NCBI GenBank assembly: GCA_000002445.1
Contig: CM000208.1
Location: 2,752,001 to 2,816,000, forward strand
Source of the DNA: Trypanosoma brucei
Taxonomy: Eukaryota
Length of the DNA: 64,000 nucleotides
Reading direction: 5' to 3'
Shown: piece by piece, positions 1-39,831 of the stretch
Layout of the letters: each line of letters begins with the position of its first letter
Numbering within the stretch: position 1 is the stretch's first letter
Notes under the pieces: generated by a model
Seen by the model: the letters and a program-made list of their open reading frames with translations, nothing else
Told to the model about the DNA's origin: nothing
Databases searched by the model: none
Program-made: the position numbers and the translations under genes

Positions 1-3000
1 AACCTCGCGGTGCCTTGACGGTTAACTCGCGCAGTGGGCTAAAGTTCGTGTTTGAGAATAAAGAAGAGCTGCAGCGAGTCCTTACACAGGCTTGGGACTG
101 CAACCAAAACTTTGACAGAACATACTCCCGCGCTCTCAGTGAGGACGAGTTTTCTCAGGCGGTCAGGCGCTTAGTGCCCGCTGCGGGGGATGACGAGATT
201 ATGGACCTGATGAAGAGGGTAGACTACGAGGCGAAGGGAACTATCAGTTGGGATGATTTTGCTACTTTTCTGGTTTCTCAAGGGAGACACCACTCCAACC
301 TTTCCCAGGGGACATTTGGTGAGTTTAGCAACGTGCCTGATCCGGAATCTTGTTTCCCGTCTCAGCAGCACGTGAATGGTACGTGCATGGAGGCAGATGG
401 GCAGCGTAATATCTTACTTACAGGTGGATCGGAGGGGACCGTGCGCGCATGGAACCTTAATACACTCGCTAGCTGTGGTGTTGTCTTCAGTGGGGACTGT
501 TGGGTTGTCGGCGTTCATTGGGCAAATCATATTCAGGGCATTATAATTGTAACGATGGATCGGCGGGTGATGATTCTGGACTCCAAAACCCTGGAGGTCC
601 GGCGCCTGTTTCGTGGTCGCCCGGTTGTAGACACATTCGAGGGTTATATGTATGCACACGACAGTGTGGAGACGGTCCGAGTTGGGGCATCGGTGGGGTC
701 AAAGTCGGGGAAGTTAGGTAACCGCAACGGTGGCCTACCTGGGCGTCCATCGCAGAGGAAGAAAGATGTTGATGGCAGCGGGAAGCCAAAACCAGCGCCA
801 GGGACAGGCAACATGTTTGGGGGTACCGCTAAAGGTTCTTGTGTGCAGTGCCACGTCGAGGAGTGCACCTTTGCTGGTTTAGTGGATGCTGTGACTTGTT
901 CTCTTTACCACCGCACGGCGTCAAACGAGGATATGCTGCTTTTGGCCACGGCAGGAGGGGAGGTGCGATTCTACTCAATTCCACGGACAACAAAGCGGGT
1001 TGTCACACCTCATGTTGTCCTCTTGTTACACGAGAAGCGGATTAACAAGATGAGCATCTTTTACAACTCCAATGCATTACTAACTGCTTCCGATGATGGT
1101 TATGTCAAAATGACTTCATTTGACACGGGCGGGATGCTGCGGACGTTTCCCACCTCTGGCCCGTCACCACACGCGGCGGTACACGACTTCGACATCAATC
1201 CAAATCTGAGAATGCTTGTTACAGTGGGACCAGAACGCCACGGCATTGTCTGGGATCTCTCCCTCGACGTACCGATGGCCACACTTGATTCCCACAACGG
1301 CCCATGTCGATGCTGTGCGATGCAACTTGATCAGAGACAAATTGTGACGGTTGGGGCTGATGGGGTCATATTTATTTTTGAAGCACAAGGTTTTCGCCTA
1401 ATACAAATCATTGGAGTTGACCGCCTTCATCCCCAGCGTGTAGTCTCCGACCCACTGAGAAAGCGTATCATATGCCTTGCTGCGTTTCCCTATTCTCACG
1501 GTCGGAACCGAAACATGGCTTTGGCTTACTCCTCTAAATATAAGGGTCACATGGCTCCAATGGTGGGAGTTATGTATAGTGCCATCCATGATTTGATAAT
1601 TACCGTCGACTCAGAGGGTTTGGTCATGACTTGGAAGCGAGCTACTGGTGGCTCCTCATTCACCTTTCAGATCAAAGAGTTCTCGGACTCTGCTGTTATG
1701 AATGCGGCCAGGCTCACATGTTTTGCCCTCGACAAACTTGAGCGTCGGCTTCTAACGGGGTTTAATAATGGGGCCGCAGCAGTATGGAATTTAATGAACG
1801 GGCAGACAACAAACGTTATCACGGCTGCTGCGGAGGGCACCCAGCCTAGCACCGTTGCTCCTGGCGTGACTGCGCTTGGTACACTTATGCGTGAAGGTCT
1901 TACCTTTTTTATCTTTGCTGCGGGAGGGTGTCTTTATTCTACAAGGGAGTCCAGCACATTTACTATTGCAAGCGCGTCGAAATGGGAGGTTCCAGCGCAT
2001 TTCGGAGAAGTTCTTCATATAATGGCCGTATCGCCGCACTGCATTGTTTGCGGTACCTCTTACGGTGCGCTGTTTTTCTATCGCGTTTTGGCTGAGCGGC
2101 AGGAAGGCTCTGTTTTGTGGGTGATGGAAACTGTCGACATGTTGGCACGCTCGACTTGTAATGTTTCTGAAGCACGGCGTGGCGAACAACCTAGCACCGC
2201 CACCACTTCGCGCATCGTTAAGATATTTCCTCTGCGTACTGTCGGTGAACATATCCTAATGTCTGTTCACGCAGACGGCACTGTAGCTCTGTGGCACACA
2301 CTGCGGCGTACAATGATGGGGGTTGTAAGCTTGCGATCTGCTTTTCCCGTAAAGGGCCTTGAAGTGGGTCTGACGCACGCAGCAGCGGACACCGGTGGAC
2401 AGTACTTCGTGTTTTCAGATGAGCAGGGTAACATTCATGTGTGCAGTATTCTGCTGCGCGAGACACGCGACGATGCCTCCATGTTTGAGACGTGTGTCAC
2501 TTTGGTGCACGATGATGATAAGAAACCTACTGTCAGTTGGCCGGGATCCCCTTTTTGTACTGACGGAGTTCCACCTGTTTTCGGGCCAATGGACGGCGTA
2601 ACATGTGGGGGGGATGATGCTGCGAACTCCTCTGGGGAGGTAAAGCAGCAAACTGGGTCTTTGCGACCAAGATCACTGGACACAGAGAAGACCCTCTATA
2701 CGTTTAGCCGATTCCGCCGTGAATACGTGTTTCATTGTGGGTTTAATGCGGTGACTGGTCTTGCCCTGGTGGATGACCCCAAGGAGATCACTGTGCGGAC
2801 ATATGGGCAGGAACCAGAGGAGGCTGCAGGGCAGGACGTTGGAGAGGAGGATTGTTCTGATATCGGTGGGTTGCATCTTGGAGCCTCAACCAGCTCTCTT
2901 TGTGACGTTGACAGCACGCAGAATTTGCTTTTACCCTCTGTAGATCTCTCGTCCACAATGATGATCACAGTGTCTTCCGGAGTAGATAACCTCACCAGGG

Positions 3001-4355
3001 TGTTCATGTTAGATGGTTTAATAGTTGGTGAGTGTGGGATGAACACGTGGGTCGCGGGGAAGGAGTCAACGTACCAGTTTCTTAGTGTCAAACCGTCTAG
3101 GAGGCTACCTCCTCACTCCTGCAGTGCCGATCCTATAAATTTTCTGGCAGAAGCCTTGTCGTCGGATAAGGCTGGCGCCTCAAAGCAGATGCGCAGCAAC
3201 TGGAATTCAAGGGGAGGCGTTCCCCGGTCCGACTGCCAAACTGGACAAGACAATGCTGCATCGGTTATATGTGAGGCTGGGTTGCCTACCTTTCAGAATA
3301 TTGGTGTAGCATTGGTAGATAGTGCTGGTGGTGAGCGCACCCCGATGGTCCAATTAAGCAGTGATCCTGTCGAACGGGAGCCATCGGTAAAACCGCAGCA
3401 ACAAAGCTGTCAGATACAGGGAGAAGAACCAGGCTCTGATAAAGTGCAGGGGGCTGCATCACCAAGGGCGCTTTCCACTTTTATGAGGCCGCAACGATCC
3501 CGTGAAGCGATGCTCAAGGGTCTGGTGAAACCCAAATTTATTAATGCCTTACGCGGAATACCAGTGGAGGAAGGAGGGGAGGAGTTGGCGTCCTTCATTA
3601 TTAGCCCGGTGTCAAGAAGCGGTGGGAAGAAGCAGCACCGAGCTGACCAGGCGAGTGAGCACTCACACACCCTTTATTCAAGAAATGGAAGCGCCATTAA
3701 CCAAACGCCTGCTTCAGTGCGCCACGCAACAGAGTTAAGTGTCTCAGAAGTGCAGCAAAGCGGGGCGCAGGATGGTCGGCCAGTGCCTTCGCAACCCGCC
3801 CTTGCGGCTGGGCTCCCCACTCCGCACCAGGCAAGCCGCCAGCTGAGAACTCACTCGTGGGCAGTCCAGGGACGAAGGTGTCCTACAACTTCGCACGACG
3901 TAGACACGACACCTGCACTCACTAAGACACACGCGGGACCCCACCAATCGTCTGGTGGTGGAGTTAATAACGTCTCGTTGGAGGGGGACACATCACCCCG
4001 TGGGGCTCTGCACGAGCATATCGATTCGCGGCGTCGGCATTTGCTTTCGCTTGGGTGTAAGGACCCTGTGGTCCTTGCAGTGCCTTGTACTACAAACACC
4101 AACACCAAGGGGGAATCTACAGCGGTGAGTGGATCTGATCGTAAACGTAACACGGCTTCTGGTTCAACTGCTCTGTTACGTCGAATACAGGGTAACTCTA
4201 TTTTAGAGGCGAGGTCTCGTGTTGCGCAGATAACTTCCAGGCTATTGATGGCGCCCGTTGAAGAAATTGTGCCACCAAAGGGAACACGCGTTAAGGAGCA
4301 GACAACCGCATGGAAGAATGTGGTTAAGAACGCAACCAGCGCCTCACAACAATAA
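1..4355 (+). CDS. Large WD40-repeat protein with N-terminal EF-hand-like pair and Ser/Thr/Gln-rich C-terminal tail; 5' partial
   Basis: Reading frame is open from window position 3 (track shows TTG at 15 as M; first in-frame ATG at 201), so the true start is probably upstream of the window. EF-hand-like loops 'DRTYSRALSEDEF' and 'VDYEAKGTISWDDF'. WD-like repeats 'GTVRAWNLNT', 'ASDDGYVKMTSFDTG', 'ADGTVALWH', 'ADGVIFIFE'. Long uninterrupted ORF (about 1446 codons) with coding-like composition; stop TAA at 4353-4355. Confidence 0.8.
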   Translation, partial: PRGALTVNSRSGLKFVFENKEELQRVLTQAWDCNQNFDRTYSRALSEDEFSQAVRRLVPAAGDDEIMDLMKRVDYEAKGTISWDDFATFLVSQGRHHSNLSQGTFGEFSNVPDPESCFPSQQHVNGTCMEADGQRNILLTGGSEGTVRAWNLNTLASCGVVFSGDCWVVGVHWANHIQGIIIVTMDRRVMILDSKTLEVRRLFRGRPVVDTFEGYMYAHDSVETVRVGASVGSKSGKLGNRNGGLPGRPSQRKKDVDGSGKPKPAPGTGNMFGGTAKGSCVQCHVEECTFAGLVDAVTCSLYHRTASNEDMLLLATAGGEVRFYSIPRTTKRVVTPHVVLLLHEKRINKMSIFYNSNALLTASDDGYVKMTSFDTGGMLRTFPTSGPSPHAAVHDFDINPNLRMLVTVGPERHGIVWDLSLDVPMATLDSHNGPCRCCAMQLDQRQIVTVGADGVIFIFEAQGFRLIQIIGVDRLHPQRVVSDPLRKRIICLAAFPYSHGRNRNMALAYSSKYKGHMAPMVGVMYSAIHDLIITVDSEGLVMTWKRATGGSSFTFQIKEFSDSAVMNAARLTCFALDKLERRLLTGFNNGAAAVWNLMNGQTTNVITAAAEGTQPSTVAPGVTALGTLMREGLTFFIFAAGGCLYSTRESSTFTIASASKWEVPAHFGEVLHIMAVSPHCIVCGTSYGALFFYRVLAERQEGSVLWVMETVDMLARSTCNVSEARRGEQPSTATTSRIVKIFPLRTVGEHILMSVHADGTVALWHTLRRTMMGVVSLRSAFPVKGLEVGLTHAAADTGGQYFVFSDEQGNIHVCSILLRETRDDASMFETCVTLVHDDDKKPTVSWPGSPFCTDGVPPVFGPMDGVTCGGDDAANSSGEVKQQTGSLRPRSLDTEKTLYTFSRFRREYVFHCGFNAVTGLALVDDPKEITVRTYGQEPEEAAGQDVGEEDCSDIGGLHLGASTSSLCDVDSTQNLLLPSVDLSSTMMITVSSGVDNLTRVFMLDGLIVGECGMNTWVAGKESTYQFLSVKPSRRLPPHSCSADPINFLAEALSSDKAGASKQMRSNWNSRGGVPRSDCQTGQDNAASVICEAGLPTFQNIGVALVDSAGGERTPMVQLSSDPVEREPSVKPQQQSCQIQGEEPGSDKVQGAASPRALSTFMRPQRSREAMLKGLVKPKFINALRGIPVEEGGEELASFIISPVSRSGGKKQHRADQASEHSHTLYSRNGSAINQTPASVRHATELSVSEVQQSGAQDGRPVPSQPALAAGLPTPHQASRQLRTHSWAVQGRRCPTTSHDVDTTPALTKTHAGPHQSSGGGVNNVSLEGDTSPRGALHEHIDSRRRHLLSLGCKDPVVLAVPCTTNTNTKGESTAVSGSDRKRNTASGSTALLRRIQGNSILEARSRVAQITSRLLMAPVEEIVPPKGTRVKEQTTAWKNVVKNATSASQQ

Positions 4356-5520: not shown

Positions 5521-6807
5521 ATGAAGCCAATTATAAAGTCGATCCTTGATACAGATGCGTACAAGTTACACATGCAGCAGGCTGTCTTTCATTTCTATCC
5601 CACAATTCACGTTGTTTACGAGTTTCAGTGCCGCAGTTCGGAGAACAAATTGGGTGATGCTGCAGATGCTATTCGAGAGCAGGTAGACCTCATGCGGCAC
5701 GTTGCCTTGACAGATGATGAATATGCTTACCTCTCAACCAAACGTTACCTCAAAAAGGATTACCTTGACTGGCTTCGTGAGTACAGGTTCAAGCCAGATC
5801 AAGTCATTATTGATGCTGTTCCGAAGACTCGGTGCAACGGGGAGACGAATATAACGTATCGGGAGCTCGCCATCACAATCAAAGGTCCATGGGTGGAAAC
5901 TATATTATGGGAAGTGCCGTTACTAGCGATTGTGTGTGAAGTAGTGCATAGCAAGCGGACGCAACATATTGGGGCTGCCGAGGCAGTTGAACACCTCAAT
6001 GCGAAGTTGGATAAACTTTTTGCTACATACGTGAATGGTGAACTAGACATGTTTCGGGTCACGGATTTTGGGACACGACGGCGCTACAGCTTCGATGTGC
6101 AGGAAGCCATTGTCAGGACGTTGCAGTCGCATCCATCATTTGGACGGAACTTTTCTGGCACGAGCAATTACCATTTGGCGATGAAGCTGGGTCTACCGGC
6201 GGTAGGGACGCAGGCACACGAGTGGTTTCAGGCCCATCAGCAGCTTTCCCCAGTTCTACGGGATTTCCAGCGCGTGGCTCTTAAGCAGTGGTTGCTAGAG
6301 TACCCTCAAGATCTTCACATCGCACTCACCGACTGTATTTCAATGGACGGTTTTCTGGGTGACTTTGATGCTGACCTCGCACAAGCGTACGTCGGCTTGC
6401 GGCACGATTCGGGTAATCCATATGTTTGGGGTCGCAAGGCCATTGAGCATTATAAGCGATTCAATATTGATCCGAAGTTGAAGACGCTTGTCTTTTCCGA
6501 TTCTCTTGACCTTGAGAGGGCCGCAAAACTGCATTGTACCTTTGCGCAGGAGTCAAATGTCATGTGTGGTATCGGAACCCAACTCACGTGCTCCATCCCC
6601 GGTGTGCAACCGCTGAGCATTGTGATTAAGATGACAGAATGCGATGGGAAGCCTGTTGCAAAGATATCTGATGAACCAGAGAAAACTACATTTAGGGATT
6701 TGGACTATGTTCAATTGTTAGGGCGAACATTCAATGTGGAATTGCAGGATATGATTGATGCGGGTTGTGGTAGGAGCGCTGTTCACCACCCAACACAGGT
6801 ACAATGA
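5521..6807 (+). CDS. pncB: Nicotinate phosphoribosyltransferase, bacterial PncB-type (NAD salvage, Preiss-Handler pathway)
   Basis: 428 aa. Near-colinear matches to enterobacterial PncB as I remember it: 'ILDTDAYKLHMQQAVFH', 'EYRFKPDQV', 'GPWVETILWEVPLLA', 'TDFGTRRRYS', 'GTSNYHLAMKLGL', 'GTQAHEWFQAHQQLSP', 'IALTDCISMDGFL', 'GLRHDSGNPYVWG', 'KTLVFSDSLDL', 'PLSIVIKMTECDGKPVAKISDEP'. ATG at 5521, stop TGA. Confidence 0.93.
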   Translation: MKPIIKSILDTDAYKLHMQQAVFHFYPTIHVVYEFQCRSSENKLGDAADAIREQVDLMRHVALTDDEYAYLSTKRYLKKDYLDWLREYRFKPDQVIIDAVPKTRCNGETNITYRELAITIKGPWVETILWEVPLLAIVCEVVHSKRTQHIGAAEAVEHLNAKLDKLFATYVNGELDMFRVTDFGTRRRYSFDVQEAIVRTLQSHPSFGRNFSGTSNYHLAMKLGLPAVGTQAHEWFQAHQQLSPVLRDFQRVALKQWLLEYPQDLHIALTDCISMDGFLGDFDADLAQAYVGLRHDSGNPYVWGRKAIEHYKRFNIDPKLKTLVFSDSLDLERAAKLHCTFAQESNVMCGIGTQLTCSIPGVQPLSIVIKMTECDGKPVAKISDEPEKTTFRDLDYVQLLGRTFNVELQDMIDAGCGRSAVHHPTQVQ

Positions 6808-8429
6808 CAAAATTGGAAGGTTGAGCAAGTGCTCATGAATTCAAGAGAATAAGGAAGAGTCGCCGATGGTTTCTCCATATATTCCTTTTTTGTCTTTGGC
6901 TCTCTCGCCTAATTTGTTTGCTAATTTTAAAAATTTATCTTGTCTTGTTGGTATACGTTTTTTCATTTCATTTCATCTCTCAGTTTTTTTTTTTCGCTTA
7001 GGCACTTCACACGTATTTTTAAGGTATGGTTTTCACTTTGTTTTGCGTGTGCGTGTGTTTTGTGCTCGGATACTGGTGTTTACATGTAGCGCTGTGTGTT
7101 GAAACAGGGTATGTGTGTGGGGAAAACGCTGATTTTACATTGCTTCTCTCATTTGATGTTGTGCCGCTTGCTGCTGTTCGGCTTGAATCTGTTAATGCCT
7201 GTCCCTGCATCCCTGCGCTCCTCTTATCCGCATTGTACGCTCAATGGGAGCTTCACAGAGAGAAACATTAGGAGGAATGTTGTGGGATTGAAGGAAAGTG
7301 CTTCTTTTTCATTCTCTAACCATTATTTTCATCTTCAAGTGCCCTCGTGTGTCACTAGCATGAGGGACAAAGCACAATATGACGTGCCGAATGGCGGGGC
7401 GTATCGCTGAGAAGTTGTTGTCACGGCAATAATATGATGTGGATACGGTGCAGCACAGTAGTTGAGGGCATTGATAGAGTTGGGTGGATTATTTTCTTTT
7501 TCATTTTGCTTTCCCAGACACTGAAATGGGAGTCGGTGCGTGGCGCCAACACTACCCTCACTTGCGCCTCGTGAAGGTCTATCGTGTGACATATGGTGCT
7601 GCAAAGCTGTTCGGTCATTTATCCCTCTTCGCTCGGAAATTACCTTTCTTCCGCTGCTGTTCTGTGATCTTGGTAGCTCGTAAACACTTCAAAGTGCAAA
7701 ATTCCTAATCCTTATGGCCATGCAACTGCTCACTTTTTTTTTCTTCTTGATCGACGTCGGGCCGAAGCTTCTGCTATCCCTTCTAGAAGCGCGTGTATAC
7801 TTCTATATATTCTAACTATCGAGTAAAGGGTAATAATACTGCTGTCTGCACCACGACCTAATGAAAGCTTATGGAGAAAACCGAGACATGTAGAGGGGTC
7901 CTCAGTCGGTTGCCGCGCTTCCCCCTTCCGCTATTGTGGATACCCTCCTAAACAATCTTTCGTGTGCAACAATTCCCACACTTTTATTTTCTTTTTAAAT
8001 CAATGTTTATCAGCTCGGTGGCAACGTAGCGATAAGCTCGTGAGCGCAAATTGCCGTGCCTGCGCTCAGGCGTTAAGCATTTGTTATTTAATAGCGGTTC
8101 TAATAATATTTTTTGTTTCGTCTTTTTTGGTTTGCTGGGATGTGGCGCCGTGCATTCGTTTAGGACTCTACGCGCCCGCCCTTTGGGGAATCCGCGACAC
8201 GCAGTATATGTGAGGGAAATTTGATATTCGCTATCCCGTTGCATTCATTCTAGAATAGTGACGAGGGAAAGAGGTTAGGGGGAACAGTTGGGCGGTTTGC
8301 TTGGTTCTATCGAATAACTGCCACTTTTCTCCTCCCATCTTTTAGTTGACGTACTTTTCTTCGATTTCCTTCACCATTTTTCAGTGTTCCCTTCCTCTTC
8401 GCTCTCTCCTTTTATTATGAAATAGAGTG

Positions 8430-10229
8430 ATGGAGTATTCGTCAGATGCAGTGTTGAATGGATATGCTTTACTAGTTTGGTGTGCTCCATCTGTTAAAGA
8501 GGAGGGGGATACTTTTTTGCGTGCTTTCTTCTTGCGGCGCTTTCAAGGGACAGTGGCCGCTTCACCCGCCAGTATTGTTTTCGCAACGCCCAATGGTTCA
8601 CATAAAACCACCTTTTGGGGTGCCGATGGCGAAGGGGGTGCGGAGCCCCCCGACCGTGGAAGCGAGGCGTTGGTATTTTTCCGCGAGCGAGAGGGGGTTA
8701 AAATTGTTTTGTCAGGCATCGTTCAGCGCATACTGCATGAGAAGGAGCCACACAGCGGGGTAGAGCTGCTGCGTGGGTATGTGTTCTTGGGTACTGATCG
8801 TTTGTTAGTTGAAGGTGTTTTTCACCCGACGAGTTGCGCTGTGGGTGCGGGGGGAACAGAAGTCAGTGGGAGAGCCAATACGTCAGGTAGTGATGACAGC
8901 TTGTGGAGACGGCGAGTGTGCACCGACTCATGCTCACAATCATTAATGGGTTGGGGTCAACCGCGGGCTGAAGTTGTCGGAATGGGACGGGACGAGACTG
9001 TTGATTATAATCGCGTTACTGATTCTTACCTGGGAGGTGGAGGAGACTTTGCCGCCACTCCTTCCCAGGGTTGTGATAATAAGAATCATAGTGACCCCCA
9101 GTGCAATTCTTACCATGGGAAATCGAGAGAACACAATCGTGGGGGACGTATTGTTTTGCGCGTGACATTTGTGTGCTTGCTCGGCCGCTGCAAGGGTCTG
9201 CACGAGGGCGGGCACGGTGGTTGCCACTCAACTGGTGTCTCCACCCACGTTGTTTTTAAACTTCTGCGTGGTACTTGCTTCCCGCGGGGCATTATTATGT
9301 TTCCTCCGAGATTACTTGGTTGTACCGATGGGGTTATGGGCGGGGATGGGGCCTGGGGGGTTGATGCCGTCGTGGAAGTGGAGGATGCGGAGGCTGCAAA
9401 TTCCGTTGTTGATTCTTTCGACGGTTCCTTACTCGAGCTCGTAAAACCAGGCCCAAACTCAGACGAAGTGGAGTTTAGGTTTCGTTTGTTTGTGCGCGAG
9501 GACCGGCCTGGGGTGGAGCAGAAGCTTTCAATTCCATTCAACACTGAGTCAGAGTTAAGCATAACTCCAAGTAACTTGCTTCAGATGGGTGGGTCGTTTC
9601 GTTGTGAAAAGTATTCCGTCGAGCCAGCTGATACGGCAGCCAACGGGAGGTGGAACGCTGCTGTGGTACGTGCAAATGGCATAGCCGATAATCTTGTAGG
9701 GTTGGGGAGTATACAACATTTTTCAAGGGACCTAGCCCCTGGTCACCAGGGGATGAATTATGGGCACGACGCAGGCCTTAGCCGATCCCCTGAGCGGGGC
9801 TACGATAGCGTGCAGCGAAGCCGAAATCGCAGTCGAGGGCGGAGTCGGAGCCGGAGCCGAAGTCGAAGCCGCAGACGTGCTCGAAGGCGGGACCGGAGCC
9901 GCAGCCAACACCGAAGCCGAGTTCGCAGCCGCAGCCGCAGCCGCAGCGGGCGACGGGGGCGCCGGCGAGCTCACGGTCGAAGTCGAAGTCGAAATCGCAG
10001 TCGAGGGCGGAGCCGAATCCGAACTCGTGGCCGTAAGCGAAGTCGTAGCTCTAGCCGTGGCTCTTGGTACAGCTACAGCTCTGCCTCCAACTCTGATCGC
10101 AGCCGTAGTCGCAGTCCTAGTTTGAGTCGCAGTCGAACACGGAGTAGTGGAAAAGCTCGTAGGAGCGAGAATGTTGGTGACGATGAAATAAGTAAGAAAT
10201 GTGCTCTTACCCATCACCGTTATCAATAG
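8430..10229 (+). CDS. Arginine/serine-rich (RS-domain) protein, SR-related; N-terminal region of unknown fold
   Basis: Track ORF starts at GTG 8427; first ATG at 8430. The C-terminal roughly 140 aa are almost pure RS/RSRS/RRR dipeptide repeats ('RSRNRSRGRSRSRSRSRSRRRARRRDRSRSQHRSRVRSRSRSRSG...SRSRSPSLSRSRTRSS'). No RRM RNP1/RNP2 motif recognised in the N-terminal 450 aa. Confidence 0.65.
   Translation: MEYSSDAVLNGYALLVWCAPSVKEEGDTFLRAFFLRRFQGTVAASPASIVFATPNGSHKTTFWGADGEGGAEPPDRGSEALVFFREREGVKIVLSGIVQRILHEKEPHSGVELLRGYVFLGTDRLLVEGVFHPTSCAVGAGGTEVSGRANTSGSDDSLWRRRVCTDSCSQSLMGWGQPRAEVVGMGRDETVDYNRVTDSYLGGGGDFAATPSQGCDNKNHSDPQCNSYHGKSREHNRGGRIVLRVTFVCLLGRCKGLHEGGHGGCHSTGVSTHVVFKLLRGTCFPRGIIMFPPRLLGCTDGVMGGDGAWGVDAVVEVEDAEAANSVVDSFDGSLLELVKPGPNSDEVEFRFRLFVREDRPGVEQKLSIPFNTESELSITPSNLLQMGGSFRCEKYSVEPADTAANGRWNAAVVRANGIADNLVGLGSIQHFSRDLAPGHQGMNYGHDAGLSRSPERGYDSVQRSRNRSRGRSRSRSRSRSRRRARRRDRSRSQHRSRVRSRSRSRSGRRGRRRAHGRSRSRNRSRGRSRIRTRGRKRSRSSSRGSWYSYSSASNSDRSRSRSPSLSRSRTRSSGKARRSENVGDDEISKKCALTHHRYQ
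9790..10140. repeat. Coding hexanucleotide repeat (AGYCGN)n encoding the RS tract
   Basis: cgaagccgaaatcgcagtcgagggcggagtcggagccggagccgaagtcgaagccgcagacg... periodic 6-nt units. The other frame encodes poly-Ala/Glu, and the minus strand gives a Thr/Ala/Ser-rich artefactual ORF (9732..10250). Confidence 0.85.
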
Positions 10230-31539: not shown

Positions 31540-34497
31540 ATGAAGGGGCAGTCTTCACAGTGTAGGGTCCCACTGCTCGGCGCAGGTTCGTCTGATGACT
31601 GCGACGGCGATAATAATGCCAACCAACCTGTGGCTGCAGTCAGGCGATGTACGAATCGTTTCTCAACAAACATGCCGCTGCTTGAAGAACGACACGACCT
31701 TTCGCTGCGGCAGAAGCTGCAAGCAACGATCCCTACAAGACACCCACGCTTCTATAGTTCGGAAGAAAGGCGTAAAATGGAGCGGTATGAGTCCGTTGAC
31801 ACGTTCGAGCCGGCAACAACAGTATACAAGGACCATCTTGCAGGTCGCAGTCAGGAACCGCGTTGGTTCATATGGGTGTTCGTTGTTGTAATTGGTATTG
31901 CTGTTAGTTTTACAGCCATAGTAGTTGTGGCGTTGTTACACGTGTTTGCAAGCGTGCGTTACGAGCTTCTAGGTTATGGGCTTAATAATTTCTCATTTTA
32001 CAACCCAAACCGCTATCCCGAGCGCTCTCCGGACCATGCGGAGTTGGACTTCACCGCTATGTTCGAGGGTGTTGGCGTTGGTTTGTACGGCATTAGCCCG
32101 CGTTCCTACATGAAAGGGTACCTGATGTGGGTGTCTTTCAGCTTTGTCACATCGCTTATTTCAAGCGTTATTTGTATTTGCGTTCCTGGGAGTGTTGGGG
32201 CAGGTATGCCAGAGGTTATGGCGTATTTAAATGGTGTTGATTACCCCATGTTGGGAAGTTTTGGCGTTTTGCTTGCGAAGATCGCCTCCGTTGTTTTTAG
32301 TGTGGCAAGTGGCGTTTGTACCGGCCATTGTGGTACGTTAATGCTAACTGGAGCCATGGTGGGGGCGCAGACGCTTCAGAGACGGCGTTGGATACAGATC
32401 GAACACGTAAATATTATTGAGTGCTTCAGGAATCCCCGTGATCGTCGGACAATTGTAGTAATCGGTGCCGCGGCGGGCATTGCATCTGCGTTTAATGTTT
32501 CGATTGGGGGTCTCATGGTCGTGGTGGAGTTAATTTCCACTACCATACCAGTCCGCTTCGCTCTTTACGTATTTGCTGCGTCACTGGTTTCTTCGTTGTT
32601 TATTCAAGTTTATTTTTCGCACTTTTTGTATTTTGCTGGGCGCGACCGTACCGGGTATTCATCAGGAGAACTAATATCGGAACTGGTTCAGGTGTTCGCG
32701 TCAACTATTCCTTTTGAGCAGATTGTGAGAATGCATATATTATATTTCATTCCAACTGTTGTTATTGGTTTTATTTGTGGTGCGCTGTCCGGTGTCTATG
32801 TCCGGCTGAGTTGGTTCGCGCTTGTGGTACGGCGGCACTTGGAACAACGCTTCAAAGTGAGAGCCTTCCGCGCGTTGTTACCGGTTGCCTTCACCGTTGC
32901 TTATGTTAGTTTGCACTACTGGATGGTTGTTGCCTTTGGGAGTGCCGGCTGGTCACCCCCCTCGTCGGCGCTGAATCCAACCGATAACACGACAGCTGGA
33001 GGTTTAACAACGCTGCGGTGGGGAAACTCATCAGCGGTGTCTCCCCACTTTGTTGATACTCAGAGCGGGCCTTGCGTTGCCGTGCCCCAAACGTTGTCTG
33101 ATTCGCGTGACGTGTCGGTCATATCGTTCTACGGTGCTAACGGCTTCTTCTGTGCGGCACCAAACAATACAGTGATCCCCGTTACTGCAACCGTGCATGA
33201 ACAACAGGTCTGGATTGTACTGCATTCCTATGCTTCTCTTGCTTTCGCCAACGCAGACTCAGCGCTGCAGACGCTTCTCAGTCTGCGGACAGAGACAATG
33301 CTCTCTCTCCCTGTTCTAATGATATTTCTGCTGATTTACTACACGTCTTCCGCAATTTTCCTTGGAATATCGCCGTGTGGGGACACTGTGTTTCCCACAC
33401 TCGTTGTTGGTGCCACCGTTGGCCGTATTGTTGGTCTTGTGGTGTTCCTCATTGTTAGCCCCGGTAGTCGGTCCTCGTGGGCCGATCCGGGCATTTTTGC
33501 TCTTATCGGTGCGGGTAGTTTTGTGGGTGGCACAACGGGACTTGCGTTTTCCATCTGTACCATCCTGATGGAAAGCACAGGACAGTTTCAACACATGTTG
33601 CCACTCATGGTGGGTATCATGATTGCTAAGAAAACAGCGGAGATCTTCACGCATAATATCAATGCTGTTCTCTTAGAGGCGCGTTGTGTGCCTATGTTGA
33701 ATTATATGAATGTGGTGGAGAAGTATCCCATGTTCGACGCTCGCCACGTTATGTCCTCTAAAGTGGTTGTGTTGGAGACGGTAACTCCCATTGGTCGCGT
33801 GGTGGACGTGCTGGAAAACACCCGCCACAACGCTTTTCCTATTGAAAGCGTTAGGGATCAGACGTACAAGGGGGTTGTGATGCGAAGGCAGTTGGAGATC
33901 GTTTTGTGGCACTTATATTACTCGCATCACCTTTCGACTTGTTCGTATGAGTGCGGGAAGCGTGTTGAGGCATCCCTGTATCGGGATAACCTGCATGGTG
34001 TGCTTCCTCCTCTGGAAAAGTGGTTAGATGCGCAGTTGGATCTCTCTCCATATATTGACTATTCGGGGTTTTGCGTGCTCGCCACCGCTACACTCCCGCG
34101 TACGTATCAAATGTTCCTAACCCTTGGGCTTCGTCATCTGACCGTCGTGGACAGCGGAAACCGGATCGTTGGAATCATCACACGGAAAGATCTTATGGCC
34201 GATCGGATCATTGAGTCAATAATCCGAACTGACAGAAGGCGACGGAGAATCCAGGGGTCGAGAAAACATTCCACAAACACCGGGTCAAGTGATGTTGCAG
34301 ATGTTGAGGTTGCCGGTGGGGAGGAGTCGAGTGAAGTTGCGTCCGGAAGGTCAGCGAGCGGGTGGGAAGCTGCGTTGAAATATGAATTTTACCGCTCTGG
34401 TGAGTGGTGTGTGAGTGATGAGGAAGATAGGGTGTCGGAGAACAATTCCATTAGAGAAGAACCCGGCGGGACTTGGAAACCCGATGCTACTTTCTAA
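31540..34497 (+). CDS. CLC-family voltage-gated chloride channel/transporter with C-terminal CBS-domain pair
   Basis: 985 aa. CLC selectivity-filter-like motifs 'GAGMPEV' (GSGIP), 'GDTVFPTLVVGATVGRIVG' (GxFxP...G..GR) and 'PLMVGIMIAKKTAEIF'. More than 10 hydrophobic helices. C-terminal CBS-like units ('VTPIGRVVDVLENTRHNAFPIE' and 'LGLRHLTVVDSGNRIVGIITRKDL'). Large hydrophilic N-glycosylation-sequon-rich insert (NTTAG, NSSAV, NNTV) between helices. Confidence 0.9.
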   Translation: MKGQSSQCRVPLLGAGSSDDCDGDNNANQPVAAVRRCTNRFSTNMPLLEERHDLSLRQKLQATIPTRHPRFYSSEERRKMERYESVDTFEPATTVYKDHLAGRSQEPRWFIWVFVVVIGIAVSFTAIVVVALLHVFASVRYELLGYGLNNFSFYNPNRYPERSPDHAELDFTAMFEGVGVGLYGISPRSYMKGYLMWVSFSFVTSLISSVICICVPGSVGAGMPEVMAYLNGVDYPMLGSFGVLLAKIASVVFSVASGVCTGHCGTLMLTGAMVGAQTLQRRRWIQIEHVNIIECFRNPRDRRTIVVIGAAAGIASAFNVSIGGLMVVVELISTTIPVRFALYVFAASLVSSLFIQVYFSHFLYFAGRDRTGYSSGELISELVQVFASTIPFEQIVRMHILYFIPTVVIGFICGALSGVYVRLSWFALVVRRHLEQRFKVRAFRALLPVAFTVAYVSLHYWMVVAFGSAGWSPPSSALNPTDNTTAGGLTTLRWGNSSAVSPHFVDTQSGPCVAVPQTLSDSRDVSVISFYGANGFFCAAPNNTVIPVTATVHEQQVWIVLHSYASLAFANADSALQTLLSLRTETMLSLPVLMIFLLIYYTSSAIFLGISPCGDTVFPTLVVGATVGRIVGLVVFLIVSPGSRSSWADPGIFALIGAGSFVGGTTGLAFSICTILMESTGQFQHMLPLMVGIMIAKKTAEIFTHNINAVLLEARCVPMLNYMNVVEKYPMFDARHVMSSKVVVLETVTPIGRVVDVLENTRHNAFPIESVRDQTYKGVVMRRQLEIVLWHLYYSHHLSTCSYECGKRVEASLYRDNLHGVLPPLEKWLDAQLDLSPYIDYSGFCVLATATLPRTYQMFLTLGLRHLTVVDSGNRIVGIITRKDLMADRIIESIIRTDRRRRRIQGSRKHSTNTGSSDVADVEVAGGEESSEVASGRSASGWEAALKYEFYRSGEWCVSDEEDRVSENNSIREEPGGTWKPDATF

Positions 34498-35540: not shown

Positions 35541-36995
35541 ATGCAGGCCACTTCTAAATCTACTGGATCTTCTGTTTCCATCACGGGGGAACACGAATAT
35601 GTAGTTTACACAGGTGCCACCCTTATTCCATTTTGCGTTGGGAGTGTTGCGCTTCCTTTAACATTGTGCCGTGCTTCTTCTTCAGCAGTCGCCGCATCCT
35701 CTCAAGCGCATGCATTGTCCTCTGCGTCCCGTGGTAACGCCAAGCAGAAGCGTAGCGGGAAGGGTAGTGGCCAACAAGAAACATCTCGTGACGAGGATAC
35801 TGGAGACAATGTTCATGACTACTGCGCAGGAATCAGTCGCTGCACGCACGTCCGGTATATTTACTTTCGTGATGGTTCCGTAGCGTCGCAGGACCTATCG
35901 TACCGTCATCAGTTATTCATGAAGGCAGATGGTGTGAAGCGGTCTGAAATGTTAGATGGAAAGGAGAGTAACCAGGTGTATAGTGCTTCACCACTGTACG
36001 CATTAGTCGATCGAGTTGTGTTCACTCTTCCTAACGGCTTTCCGGAGCGGCGCCGCGAAGTCACGCACCCGCCGTTTTTCATTGTGGACGACACGTGGGC
36101 GGAACATTTGGTGGAGGTGGAGGTGCACTTTCATCCATGGTTGGGCATAGCCCCTTTTACAGCGAGTCACATGGTTCTCTTAAACCAGCGTGTTGACGTC
36201 ACACCGCAGTTGCTAAGCTCAACTCAAGGCCAATGTAAACCACCGTCAACTGTCATCCTCTCACCCGACGAAGAGGAACGTTTAGCGGGTGTTGGGTCAT
36301 CTTCGCTTATTGGAACGAAGAGGTCCAGAGTACCCGAGTGTGGTGTTGTATTGCCTGAGGAAACTAGTGCAGTGCGTATGGATCTTAGTAATTCTGTTTA
36401 TTCACCTGATATGGTTATCCTTGGCGAACCCGGGTTTCGGGAAAGGCTTGTAGACCTCGTGGGGGCCCCTGTCGTAGCCGAGAGGCGTGATGCGATGCGA
36501 ATATTTCACCCGACGCTTGACGTTGTGCGATATCTTGCCGCTGTGCGAGCAATGCCTCAGCCAGAGTTAATGGCACCACCTCGAATATGTCTCTTGCCGT
36601 GGTACCAGCAGTCGGTTCAACCGCTGGCGACGCAACATACGGAGAAGAAATGCGAGAAAAGTGAGCGGTGCGACCGACACGGGACACGCAGTCGCTCCGT
36701 AATGAATGATGATAATATTTGTGATGACTCCGACCACGAAATTGACGTGGGATCCCTACCCCCCTGGTGCTTTCCATTTGAGGTGATAATTCATGCATGC
36801 GAGTCACGGCGGCAGAGTGGTGCCGTTGATGCCATGCGGGCTGTGCTTGCAGAGCTCAAGAAGGAGCAGTTGGAGTTACGTGAAAGCATTGAACAGAACA
36901 TTGCAGCCGCAACAGCAAATGCAGAAGAGCTGCGGGACGTCATCAAACACATGAGCCAGAGGTGCGCTGCTCTTCAGACGTCGTGGAAGCGCTAG
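35541..36995 (+). CDS. Hypothetical nuclear protein with putative YEATS-like domain (candidate histone acyl-lysine reader) and C-terminal coiled coil
   Basis: 484 aa. The segment 'RVVFTLPNGFPERRREVTHPPFFIVDDTWAEHLVEVEVHFHPW' parallels the YEATS consensus as I remember it ('V.F.LH.SFPNP.R.V...PY.V.E.GWGEF.I.I.I.F'). The C-terminus 'LAELKKEQLELRESIEQNIAAATANAEELRDVIKHM' is coiled-coil-like. Confidence 0.5.
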   Translation: MQATSKSTGSSVSITGEHEYVVYTGATLIPFCVGSVALPLTLCRASSSAVAASSQAHALSSASRGNAKQKRSGKGSGQQETSRDEDTGDNVHDYCAGISRCTHVRYIYFRDGSVASQDLSYRHQLFMKADGVKRSEMLDGKESNQVYSASPLYALVDRVVFTLPNGFPERRREVTHPPFFIVDDTWAEHLVEVEVHFHPWLGIAPFTASHMVLLNQRVDVTPQLLSSTQGQCKPPSTVILSPDEEERLAGVGSSSLIGTKRSRVPECGVVLPEETSAVRMDLSNSVYSPDMVILGEPGFRERLVDLVGAPVVAERRDAMRIFHPTLDVVRYLAAVRAMPQPELMAPPRICLLPWYQQSVQPLATQHTEKKCEKSERCDRHGTRSRSVMNDDNICDDSDHEIDVGSLPPWCFPFEVIIHACESRRQSGAVDAMRAVLAELKKEQLELRESIEQNIAAATANAEELRDVIKHMSQRCAALQTSWKR

Positions 36996-37464: not shown

Positions 37465-38085
37465 ATGAGCTCTGGAAGCACGAAGCTTGAAGCAATTGTT
37501 GTATGTGGACCATCCGGTGCGGGAAAGACTACGCTCCTTGAGCGTTTGATGGGCGCTTATCCGAATCGCTTTGGATTTTCCGTATCACACACGACGCGTG
37601 CTCCCCGTGAGGGTGAGGTGCACGGCCGTGAGTACTTCTTCTCGACTCGTGAGAGCATGCTCACAATGGAGAAAGAGGGAAAGTTCATTGAACTATGTGA
37701 TGTTCACGGAAACTTGTATGGCACCAGCATTGATGCGGTTAAGGAGGTTCAAAGTACCGGCAAGGTGTGTGTCATTGACATGGACGTGAAGGGCGCGCAG
37801 AAGCTGCGAGCGAGCGGTTACTTGAAGAATGTACTTTATTTGTTTGTCACGGTGCCATCAATCGATGTTCTGCGCGCGCGAATTCAAAAGCGGGGTGCAT
37901 TGAGTGAGGAAGTGCTTCAGCGGCGCATTGCAACCGCTGAGGTGGAGTTGCACTTTTTGGGGGAAAATCCTACCTTTTTTTCCCACGTCATCACAAATGA
38001 GGAGTTGGAGGTATCGTACAAAAAACTGTGCGAAATCGTTGGGAGCGAGTTTCTGAAATATGGTATGGAGGGGTTAAATAAGTGA
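37465..38085 (+). CDS. gmk: Guanylate kinase (GMP kinase)
   Basis: 206 aa. P-loop 'VCGPSGAGKTTL'. Guanylate-kinase signature 'SVSHTTRAPREGEVHGREYFF'. 'CVIDMDVKGAQKL' and 'IQKRGALSEEVLQRRIATAEVEL' match GK family architecture. Confidence 0.92.
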   Translation: MSSGSTKLEAIVVCGPSGAGKTTLLERLMGAYPNRFGFSVSHTTRAPREGEVHGREYFFSTRESMLTMEKEGKFIELCDVHGNLYGTSIDAVKEVQSTGKVCVIDMDVKGAQKLRASGYLKNVLYLFVTVPSIDVLRARIQKRGALSEEVLQRRIATAEVELHFLGENPTFFSHVITNEELEVSYKKLCEIVGSEFLKYGMEGLNK

Positions 38086-38805: not shown

Positions 38806-39831
38806 CTACTTCTTGTTTGGTTGCCTTGTGACTTCAAGTGGCGGGATGTATGGGGCCTTTTGGCTTATTTATTTATTGAATTTGTGTGACATGTCGACGC
38901 GGTGGGTTTCCATTTCACCTCACTTCACTCCTATTTCTGTTAGCTTTTGCTTTCGCGTTGCTCTTGCGGATGGTGAGGGGGTTCAGGCAATTTCTTCCTT
39001 TCTGTGGCTTCATTCCCCTCTACCCACCCCCGTTACTGTGGAGGTCAGGGCCCGTGGGTTAATGTTTTCATGTTGAAATTTCGGGAGTTTAATACGTAAG
39101 GCAGAAAAGGGTTTCGTTTTGGATGGATATCGCTTCTGCATAAAAGGATGGGCGCAAAGGCTGCTGTACAAATGAGGTTGCTGACGGTTGGTTCCTGCTT
39201 ATTCTGTTTATTCGATGCATTAAAGCTCGTGAGGCAGAGTGAATGAAAATGCATTTTACATCTTTTTTTTGGCATCATTTTTAGTTTCTACGGTTCTGAC
39301 TTAGCACTTCCTTTTTTCTTCTCATCTTTATTGATAATGTGTTACTTTTTTTTTTCGTGGCGGTGAAGTGCGTGAACGGGCGCTAAAGTAACCCCTAAGC
39401 TCTATCTCCACCCTAACGACACTGCAAATCCCTGGCGGCCCCACACATACACGCACTCGCACAGGACCACCATAAGAAAAGGGTGCTTCCACCGTGCACA
39501 GCAACGTTTTCTCCCTTTGCAGGCAAGAAAGAAAACATTTTACACATAAACTTTCCTCATAATTTAAATATTTTAGTTCGGGTTCGACGCTTCGCCCCCC
39601 TCCCCCCCAAATTCATCTGAGAGTCCGGGATGTGTTTGCAACTCACCGCTTCTGCCGGTCAAAGTGGCACTCTATTTTGTCGTCGTTTTCCTTTTTTATT
39701 CTTTTACATTCCCGCCTCCGCATACGTACAACCTCCTCAAATGCATTCTGTTGACAATTCGAACGAGCGAAGAACTTGTCTGCAACGTGTGTGGCTGGCA
39801 ATAGTTGTGCATATTTGTTATATATATATAT

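What the first reader, a model, noticed from the sequence alone, without database searches (positions are those of the whole stretch)
8430..10229. SR-like protein whose RS domain is encoded by a near-perfect hexanucleotide DNA repeat, with no recognisable RRM
The C-terminal roughly 140 residues are almost uninterrupted RS/RSRS dipeptides generated by an (AGCCGN/AGTCGN)n array at 9790-10140, a textbook RS domain of the SR splicing-factor type. I cannot find RNP1/RNP2 motifs in the 450-residue N-terminal part, so it may be an RS-domain cofactor rather than a classical SR protein, relevant to trans-splicing regulation in kinetoplastids. The repeat is likely length-polymorphic.
Basis: partly seen in the sequence, partly recalled or inferred. 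Interest (0 to 1): 0.5.

Follow-up and report, generated by a model that had tools for sequence, protein, structure and literature searches.

The report
Known trypanosome RS-tailed protein ESAP1
The flagged gene is Trypanosoma brucei Tb927.10.11600, published in 2025/26 as ESAP1, a nuclear adaptor with an RRM-like domain and an arginine-serine tail that helps recruit an RNA nuclease to the antigen expression site, so the finding is real but already explained.

Summary
The ORF (8430-10229, +, 599 aa) and its C-terminal arginine/serine domain are real. The protein is identical to T. brucei TREU927 XP_823367.1. Its neighbours (WD40, NAPRTase, Skp1-like, Ca-ATPase) and its 66.0 kDa mass identify it as Tb927.10.11600. 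[quoted passage not shown] It is needed to recruit ESB3 and the PIN nuclease ESB2, which lower ESAG transcripts.

- The RS domain (residues 451-579) has 51% of its residues in RS/SR dipeptides and meets the SR-protein composition criterion.
- Pfam finds no RRM.
- The DNA is not a near-perfect hexamer repeat. Lag-6 identity is 0.55 and the longest perfect run is 24 bp.
- Published RNAi data point to ESAG transcript decay, not trans-splicing.

The cited paper's main text does not mention three things found here.
- Orthologues in T. congolense, T. grayi, T. cruzi, T. melophagium and a bodonid have only a short basic patch, and all end in a weak (sub-threshold) WW-like motif.
- The long RS tail is therefore specific to the T. 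brucei group.
- The tail is length-polymorphic by one in-frame hexamer.

The parts
8430..10229 (+). Coding sequence of Tb927.10.11600 (ESAP1), 599 aa plus stop codon. Mass 66.0 kDa, pI 10.5.
   Evidence: ORF list. The translation is identical to XP_823367.1. Gene order matches Tb927.10.11580-11620.
8466..8744 (+). N-terminal RRM-like core, residues 13-105, with beta-alpha-beta-beta-alpha-beta order and a long disordered beta2-beta3 loop. The beta1 strand (ALLVWC) and beta3 strand (EALVF) lack the canonical RNP aromatic residues.
8763..8822 (+). Strongly conserved beta-hairpin extension, residues 112-131 (LLRGYVFLGTDRLLVEGVFH), packed after the RRM-like core.
   Evidence: Invariant columns L113, R115, G116, G121, R124, V127, E128 and G129 across 7 orthologues. 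Strands E112-120 and E123-131 have pLDDT about 88.
8832..9134 (+). Poorly conserved, predicted disordered linker, residues 135-235. It is acidic and low-complexity in the T. grayi, T. cruzi-group and T. melophagium orthologues.
   Evidence: Alignment A2. pLDDT is 22-31 in the full-length model.
9135..9620 (+). Second conserved domain, residues 236-397. It is the best-conserved part of the family. Its secondary-structure order is again beta-alpha-beta-beta-alpha-beta (241-338), so it may be a second RRM-like fold, but this is unconfirmed.
   Evidence: Alignment A4. This region gave the best phmmer stretches to two of the orthologues (T. c. marinkellei, bodonid). Secondary-structure order comes from the low-confidence full-length model. 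There were no Pfam or PDB sequence hits, and Foldseek on the poor model was not significant.
9780..10166 (+). RS domain, residues 451-579, encoded by a degenerate (AGY CGN)n codon array.
   Evidence: Composition and shuffle test. Codon usage. Periodicity by codon position. TRF fragments.
9924..9947 (+). The only perfect hexamer run, (CGCAGC)x4. It is the site of the 6-bp in-frame length difference from T. b. gambiense.
   Evidence: longest perfect run. (indel at 9924-9929; placement within the run is arbitrary). (599 aa against 597 aa proteins).
10167..10226 (+). Short C-terminal tail that is not RS-rich (ENVGDDEISKKCALTHHRYQ). It occupies the position where orthologues carry a Q-rich stretch and a WW-like motif. 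No WW relic is detectable.
   Evidence: Alignment A2. The tail does not score against a WW-tail profile, whereas 676 of 1000 shuffles do. tblastn with orthologue tails against the window gave nothing better than E 0.14.
8324..8426 (+). Polypyrimidine tracts (8324-8336, 8354-8372, 8387-8413) followed by AG dinucleotides (8344, 8383, 8424, 8426). This is the likely trans-splice acceptor region. The role is inferred only.
   Evidence: Direct reading of the sequence. The in-frame stop at 8418 fixes the ATG at 8430 as the first possible Met.

Best explanation
The region is the gene for ESAP1 (ESB-associated protein 1, Tb927.10.11600) of Trypanosoma brucei.

Architecture: an N-terminal non-canonical RRM-like domain with a conserved beta-hairpin extension, a disordered linker, a second conserved domain, and a 129-residue C-terminal RS domain.

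Shown by others (PMC13056571):
- In bloodstream forms ESAP1 forms a single nuclear focus at the VSG expression-site body, and this depends on VEX2.
- It is required to localise ESB3 and then the PIN endonuclease ESB2.
- Its depletion raises ESAG transcripts from the active expression site.
- In procyclic forms it is dispersed in nucleoplasmic speckles and is dispensable.

Inferred here:
- The RRM-like domain lacks the RNP aromatic residues, so it may act as a protein-interaction module rather than, or as well as, an RNA-binding one.
- The RS tail is a multivalent, probably phospho-regulated, disordered region that drives partitioning into the ESB and speckle condensates.
- The tail arose in the T. 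brucei lineage by slippage-type expansion of AGY-CGN hexamers from a short ancestral R/S/H-rich patch. The ancestral Q-rich and WW-like C-terminus was lost at the same time.
- The tail is now maintained at the protein level.
For: Identity:
- The translation is identical to XP_823367.1 from TREU927 chromosome 10.
- The neighbours are a WD40 protein, NAPRTase, a Skp1-like protein and a P-type Ca-ATPase. This is the order of Tb927.10.11580-11620 in the supplement of PMC13056571.
- The 66.0 kDa mass equals the value listed for Tb927.10.11600 in PMC4783070, Table 1.

Function:
- PMC13056571 describes an RRM-like domain plus RS repeats and the VEX2 > ESAP1 > ESB3 > ESB2 recruitment hierarchy.

RS domain:
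- Composition and the excess of alternating RS/SR over shuffles.

Selection at the protein level:
- Lag-6 identity is 0.66 and 0.61 at codon positions 1 and 2 but 0.39 at position 3.
- Against T. b. gambiense, the tract has 4 synonymous and 0 non-synonymous changes plus one in-frame hexamer indel. The first 450 codons have 7 synonymous and 7 non-synonymous changes.

RRM-like fold:
-.

Lineage specificity:
- The best 100-aa window holds 43 RS/SR dipeptides in T. brucei and 2-7 in T. congolense, T. grayi, T. cruzi-group, T. melophagium and the bodonid homologue.
- Those orthologues end in a conserved WW-like motif.
- T. grayi is fully syntenic, and the bodonid homologue also sits upstream of a Skp1-like gene.

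Kinase link:
- Tb927.10.11600 co-purified with the splicing kinase CRK9, alongside DYRK and CLK-like kinases and TSR1.
Against: - The role of the RS tail itself has not been tested. I found no RS-deletion mutant described in PMC13056571.
- The synonymous/non-synonymous contrast rests on only 4 substitutions.
- The alignments behind the models have only 6-7 sequences.
- The WW-like motif in orthologues is below Pfam's threshold (13.5-21.7 bits against 26.9). The best PDB profile hit, Salvador WW, has E 0.076.
- The CRK9 co-purification is low-ranked (rank 59), and the purification also recovered some ribosomal proteins.
Confidence: 0.85

Rival explanations
1. It is a bona fide SR or SR-like splicing cofactor. 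The RS domain recruits it to the trans-splicing machinery and it regulates spliced-leader trans-splicing generally.
For: - The RS domain meets the >=50 aa and >=40% RS criterion quoted in PMC8311971.
- It has an RRM-like fold.
- It co-purified with the splicing kinase CRK9, TSR1 and a CLK-like kinase.
- It shows a speckle pattern in procyclic forms, and the ESB lies next to the spliced-leader array body.
Against: - RNAi in procyclic forms gave no fitness cost and no transcriptome change.
- In bloodstream forms the main reported transcriptome effect is upregulation of ESAGs, mainly from the active expression site. This mirrors ESB2 and ESB3 knockdown and is attributed to loss of ESB2.
- It is not among the trypanosome SR proteins listed in the 2021 review.
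- The RNP1 and RNP2 aromatic residues are missing.
- The RS tail is absent from all orthologues outside the T. brucei group, which does not fit a core splicing role.
Confidence: 0.08
2. The RS tract is a functionally neutral by-product of hexanucleotide slippage in a disordered tail. The protein works through its folded domains only.
For: - Orthologues do without the tract.
- It is length-polymorphic at the one perfect hexamer run.
- AGY-biased Ser codons point to an origin as a DNA repeat.
- No experiment has isolated the function of the tail.
Against: - Third codon positions have diverged while the R/S alternation is kept.
- There are 4 synonymous and 0 non-synonymous changes in the tract, against 7 and 7 in the N-terminal part.
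- The alternating RS order exceeds every one of 5000 shuffles.
- An R/S/H-rich basic patch sits at the same position in all orthologues.
- RS domains are established drivers of nuclear-speckle targeting (general knowledge).
Confidence: 0.12
3. ESAP1 is a UPF3-like adaptor in an NMD-like module. Its RRM-like domain bridges the UPF1-like helicase VEX2 to the SMG6-like nuclease ESB2 (via ESB3), and the RS tail is only an accessory.
For: [quoted passage not shown]
- The RRM-like domain lacks RNA-stacking aromatic residues, as protein-binding RRM-like domains do (general knowledge).
- The recruitment hierarchy fits an adaptor role.
Against: - The same paper states that the proteins are not homologues of NMD factors.
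- No direct ESAP1-VEX2 or ESAP1-ESB3 binding is reported in the passages I read.
- This reading is compatible with the best explanation rather than exclusive of it.
Confidence: 0.3

Closest known systems
ESAP1 / Tb927.10.11600 (Nat Microbiol 2026, PMC13056571; bioRxiv 10.1101/2025.05.24.654301)
   Same: It is the same gene. The protein sequence, chromosomal neighbours and mass are identical, and the published description (RRM-like domain plus C-terminal RS repeats) matches.
   Different: Nothing differs. I add three points: the RS tail is specific to the T. brucei group, the other orthologues end in a WW-like motif, and a syntenic homologue exists in a bodonid, although the paper calls ESAP1 'restricted to trypanosomes'.
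Classical SR proteins (SRSF family; trypanosome TSR1, RBSR1-3, TRRM1)
   Same: It has a C-terminal RS domain of at least 50 aa with more than 40% RS content, lying downstream of an RRM-type fold, and it is nuclear with a speckle-like distribution.
   Different: There is no Pfam RRM_1 match, and the RNP1 and RNP2 aromatic residues are absent. About 350 residues and a second domain separate the RRM-like fold from the RS tail. The published RNAi phenotypes are not those of a general splicing factor.
SR-related RS-domain proteins without a canonical RRM (for example cyclin L / trypanosome CYC12, as discussed in PMC4783070)
   Same: An RS or basic C-terminal domain is attached to a module that is not a classical RRM. 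There is an association with the CRK9 kinase complex.
   Different: ESAP1 has no cyclin fold. Its RS tail is much richer in RS dipeptides than the 'moderate accumulation' described for CYC12.
UPF3 RRM-like domain (PDB 7NWU)
   Same: It is a non-canonical RRM-like fold used as an adaptor within an RNA-decay pathway that includes a PIN nuclease. The structural overlay is reported in PMC13056571.

Membership tests
ESAP1 (Tb927.10.11600) orthogroup | Protein sequence identical to the TREU927 chromosome 10 product | tested here: met
   The window translation equals P0003, which is XP_823367.1 / Q389I1.
ESAP1 (Tb927.10.11600) orthogroup | Genomic position between Tb927.10.11590 (NAPRTase) and Tb927.10.11610 (SKP1-like) | tested here: met
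   Pfam on the neighbours gives WD40, NAPRTase, Skp1 and cation ATPase. The gene list with product names is in supplement file 13 of PMC13056571. The 66.0 kDa mass also matches.
ESAP1 (Tb927.10.11600) orthogroup | Localisation to the expression-site body and requirement for ESB3/ESB2 recruitment | not testable with these tools
   Experimental result reported in PMC13056571.
Classical SR protein (definition quoted in PMC8311971 after Manley & Krainer 2010) | N-terminal canonical RRM | tested here: inconclusive
Classical SR protein (definition quoted in PMC8311971 after Manley & Krainer 2010) | [quoted passage not shown] | tested here: met
   In residues 451-579, 51% of residues lie in RS/SR dipeptides. 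The best 50-aa window reaches 64%.
Classical SR protein (definition quoted in PMC8311971 after Manley & Krainer 2010) | Glycine/arginine-rich spacer directly linking the RRM to the RS domain | tested here: not met
   About 345 residues separate the RRM-like core from the RS domain. They include a disordered linker and a second conserved domain.
Classical SR protein (definition quoted in PMC8311971 after Manley & Krainer 2010) | Activity in constitutive or alternative splicing | not testable with these tools
   The published RNAi phenotypes point to ESAG decay, not splicing.
WW-domain protein (Pfam PF00397) | WW domain in the T. brucei protein | tested here: not met
   No Pfam hit. tblastn with orthologue tails against the window found nothing. 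The tail does not score against the orthologue WW-tail profile.
WW-domain protein (Pfam PF00397) | WW domain in orthologues outside the T. brucei group | tested here: inconclusive
   Pfam WW scores 13.5-21.7 bits, below the 26.9 cut-off, in 3 of 5 orthologues. The best PDB profile hit is Salvador WW, E 0.076. The motif LPPGWrav.S....R.YYV..D..TG....SWE is conserved.
UPF3-like RRM-like domain | Closest structural neighbour is UPF3 | tested here: not met

The most novel reading that the evidence does not exclude
The RS domain may be a recent innovation of the T. brucei group. On this reading, hexamer expansion of an ancestral basic patch, together with loss of an ancient Q-rich and WW-like C-terminus, rewired an old kinetoplastid RRM-like protein into the VSG expression-site body. 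That protein is already present, next to the same Skp1-like gene, in bodonids. The RS tail would then be the element that targets ESAP1 to the ESB condensate and recruits ESB3 and ESB2. It would have co-evolved with ESAGs and ESB3, which occur only in the same species.
Probability: 0.3. Interest if true: 0.55.

Novelty: already known. Interest (0 to 1): 0.27.

Why it matters
ESAP1 belongs to the machinery that lets African trypanosomes express one VSG at very high level while keeping co-transcribed ESAGs low. This is central to antigenic variation, and that part is published. The comparative result here narrows the next experiment. Only the species that have ESAGs and ESB3 carry the long RS tail, and their relatives carry a WW-like end instead. 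The RS tail is therefore the obvious candidate for the ESB-targeting or ESB3-recruiting element, and a tail swap would test it. The case also documents how an RS domain can be built from a codon-level hexamer repeat and then held by selection on the protein.

Tried and rejected
1. Pfam on the whole protein and on each conserved domain of six orthologues gave no family for T. brucei. The only hits were weak RRM_1 hits in the bodonid homologue.
2. phmmer and profile searches of PDB sequences with residues 1-447, domain 1 and domain 2 found nothing meaningful.
3. A word-index protein search with the domain-2 profile returned nothing, not even the known members, so it was a wasted search.
4. The full-length AF2 model was poor (pLDDT 36.5), and its Foldseek search was not significant. 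Domain 2 therefore stays unassigned.
6. I looked for a WW relic, or a downstream WW-encoding segment, in T. brucei. Three-frame translation downstream of the stop, tblastn and a profile-versus-shuffle test of the tail were all negative. The MAFFT alignment of the T. brucei tail with the WW motif (S573, R578, V582, D585) is therefore treated as chance.
7. I considered that the stop-free ORFs overlapping the repeat (9760-10125 +, 9732-10250 -) might be genes. I rejected this because they are by-products of a stop-free codon repeat. Their translations are Ala/Val/Glu-rich or Ala/Ser/Thr/Pro-rich low-complexity strings.
8. The T. congolense locus could not be fetched because no gene with exactly that product is on record.
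9. Rfam and tRNA scans of the window found nothing.
Full report
**What is in the sequence**

- One ORF runs from 8427 (GTG) or 8430 (ATG) to 10229 on the + strand. An in-frame stop at 8418 leaves the ATG at 8430 as the first methionine.
- The 599-aa product is identical to XP_823367.1 / Q389I1 of Trypanosoma brucei brucei TREU927 chromosome 10.
- Polypyrimidine tracts at 8324-8413, followed by AG dinucleotides, lie just upstream, as expected for a trans-splice acceptor region. This role is inferred.
- The window is a single + strand polycistronic stretch of ordinary housekeeping genes, with no tRNA or Rfam hits.

**The RS domain**

- Residues 451-579 (window 9780-10166) are 70.5% R+S.
- 51% of these residues lie in RS or SR dipeptides, and the best 50-aa window reaches 64%.
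- There are 50 RS/SR dipeptides, against 31.6 +/- 4.0 (maximum 46) in 5000 shuffles of the same residues. The alternation is therefore more than a composition effect.
- This meets the composition criterion for an RS domain quoted in PMC8311971.
- Serine in the tail is encoded by AGY in 35 of 41 codons, whereas TCN dominates in the rest of the protein. Arginine is almost always CGN.

**The DNA is not a near-perfect hexamer repeat**

- TRF finds only short pieces with 63-84% matches and scores of 36-52, below several AT-rich microsatellites elsewhere in the window.
- Lag-6 self-identity is 0.55. It is 0.66 and 0.61 at codon positions 1 and 2 but 0.39 at position 3.
- The longest perfect run is 24 bp, (CGCAGC)x4 at 9924-9947.
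- This is the pattern of an old repeat whose silent sites have drifted while the encoded R/S alternation was kept.

**Variation within the T. brucei group**

- T. b. gambiense and T. equiperdum proteins are 597 aa and lack one RS dipeptide.
- At the DNA level, T. b. gambiense shows a 6-bp in-frame deletion inside the one perfect run.
- The RS tract shows 4 substitutions, all synonymous. The first 450 codons show 7 synonymous and 7 non-synonymous changes.
- The numbers are small, but they point to constraint on the protein sequence. They also confirm the predicted length polymorphism.

**Identity with a published gene**

- The neighbours are a WD40 protein, nicotinate phosphoribosyltransferase, a Skp1-like protein and a P-type Ca-ATPase.
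- A supplement of PMC13056571 lists exactly this order: Tb927.10.11580 WD40.11590 NAPRTase.11600 hypothetical conserved.11610 SKP1-like.11620 calcium-transporting ATPase.
- The calculated mass is 66.0 kDa. This is the value given for Tb927.10.11600 in the CRK9 purification table of PMC4783070.
- Tb927.10.11600 was named ESAP1 in a 2025 preprint and a 2026 Nature Microbiology paper.

**What the ESAP1 paper reports**

- It forms one focus at the VSG expression-site body in bloodstream forms and nucleoplasmic speckles in procyclic forms.
- Its localisation depends on VEX2.
- It is needed for ESB3 localisation, and with ESB3 for localisation of the PIN endonuclease ESB2.
- Its knockdown gives a fitness cost and upregulates ESAG transcripts from the active expression site.
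- RNAi in procyclic forms had no fitness or transcriptome effect.

The biology of this gene is therefore already described, and the role shown is targeted RNA decay at the expression site, not trans-splicing control.

**Is there an RRM?**

- At the sequence level there is none. Pfam gives no family at E <= 1. PDB sequence and profile searches are empty.
- At the fold level there is one, for the N-terminus. A full-length AF2 model from a 7-sequence alignment was poor (pLDDT 36.5). Its secondary-structure order is nevertheless beta-alpha-beta-beta-alpha-beta twice, at residues 13-105 and 241-338.
- A model of residues 1-132 alone reached pLDDT 76.7 and pTM 0.75.
- Foldseek was not significant (best E 0.13). 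Its highest-probability rows were UHM and RRM domains.
- The beta1 and beta3 strands read ALLVWC and EALVF, without the aromatic residues of RNP2 and RNP1. This fits a non-canonical, possibly protein-binding, RRM-like module.
- A strongly conserved hairpin (LRRGYVYLGxDRLLVEGV, residues 112-131) extends the sheet.
- The second conserved domain (residues 236-397) could not be assigned. An RRM-like fold there is only a suggestion from the secondary-structure order.

**Orthologues**

- An exhaustive HMMER scan of 1.84 billion representative proteins with residues 1-447 found only five other clusters. They are T. congolense, T. grayi, the T. cruzi group, T. melophagium and one unnamed sequence from a Logan assembly.
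- T. grayi is fully syntenic: WD40, NAPRTase, the gene, Skp1.
- The unnamed homologue also lies directly upstream of a Skp1-like gene. A DAGAT gene on the same contig is 69% identical to that of Bodo saltans, its closest named relative. The contig is therefore from a bodonid, and the family predates the genus Trypanosoma.
- No Leishmania homologue reached E 0.001.
- None of these orthologues has a long RS tract. The best 100-aa window holds 2-7 RS/SR dipeptides, against 43 in T. brucei.
- At the aligned position they have a short R/S/H-rich basic patch. This is followed by a further variable (Q-rich in T. grayi, T. c. marinkellei and T. melophagium) stretch and a conserved C-terminal motif, LPPGWrAvYS...R.YYV..DP.TG...SSWE.
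- That motif resembles a WW domain, but only below threshold. Pfam WW scores 13.5-21.7 bits against a 26.9 cut-off in 3 of 5 orthologues. The best PDB profile hit is the Salvador WW domain at E 0.076.
- T. brucei has no such motif in the protein, downstream of the stop, or elsewhere in the window.
- The main text of the ESAP1 paper does not contain 'WW domain' or 'CRK9'. It calls ESAP1 restricted to trypanosomes.

**Interpretation**

- Shown: the gene is ESAP1, it has a genuine RS domain and an RRM-like N-terminal fold, the RS tail is specific to the T. brucei group, and it varies by in-frame hexamers.
- Shown by others: the ESB localisation, the recruitment hierarchy and the ESAG phenotype.
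- Inferred: the tail grew by slippage of AGY-CGN hexamers from the ancestral basic patch and is now kept by selection.
- Inferred: it acts as a multivalent, probably phosphorylation-controlled, disordered region for partitioning into the ESB and speckles.
- Inferred: its appearance, together with loss of the WW-like end, is linked to the ESAG/ESB3 system, which exists only in the same species. The co-occurrence is noted; the link is my inference.
- The low-ranked co-purification with CRK9, DYRK and CLK-like kinases and TSR1 is consistent with kinase regulation but proves nothing.

**Verdict**

- The feature is already known, so overall interest is low.
- The one fresh element is the comparative finding on the origin of the RS tail and the ancestral WW-like end. 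It suggests a direct tail-swap experiment.

Noticed in passing
L002:2860-4476 (Logan SRR22387936 contig, 8016 bp): A 538-aa homologue (P0009) has the same two conserved domains, a weak Pfam RRM_1 hit at its N-terminus and a WW-like C-terminus. It sits 27 bp upstream of a Skp1-like gene. The contig's DAGAT gene is 69% identical to that of Bodo saltans, so the contig is from a bodonid. This conflicts with the published statement that ESAP1 is restricted to trypanosomes.
   Followed up: partly
window 9732-10250 (-) and 9760-10125 (+): ORFs of 172 aa and 121 aa overlap the RS-coding array in other frames. Their translations are Ala/Ser/Thr/Pro-rich or Ala/Val/Glu-rich low-complexity strings. They are stop-free by-products of the codon repeat, not genes.
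   Followed up: yes
window 8427-8430: The mechanical ORF call starts at GTG 8427, one codon before the annotated ATG at 8430.
   Followed up: yes
P0005 (T. brucei equiperdum RHW68971.1, 464 aa): This annotated protein starts at the equivalent of residue 134. At that position the window sequence has Thr, while T. b. gambiense has Met. It therefore lacks the whole RRM-like domain. This is probably a gene-model truncation rather than biology.
   Followed up: no
window 1-64000: All large ORFs lie on the + strand, forming one polycistronic unit. They include WD40 (15-4355), NAPRTase (5521-6807), Skp1-like (11123-11812), P-type Ca-ATPase (12172-15504), PSP1 C-terminal domain protein (16875-18779), prenyltransferase alpha (23542-25017), CLC chloride channel with CBS (31540-34497), YEATS protein (35541-36995), guanylate kinase (37465-38085) and zf-CW protein (39805-42174). 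Several further ORFs of 200-750 aa have no Pfam family.
   Followed up: partly
window 50304-57115 and 18779-23542: There are long stretches without any ORF of 200 aa or more. They contain AT-rich microsatellites: (ATATAT)n at 23436-23515, (TA)n at 26359-26406 and (ATTATT)n at 53267-53365. They are presumably long UTRs or intergenic regions. No RNA genes were found by Rfam or ARAGORN.
   Followed up: partly
window 57495-57596: A 36-bp tandem repeat (2.8 copies, 73% matches), rich in GAA/GAG/GAT codons, lies near the 5' end of the 1163-aa ORF at 57115-60606. It probably encodes an acidic E/D-rich low-complexity stretch.
   Followed up: no
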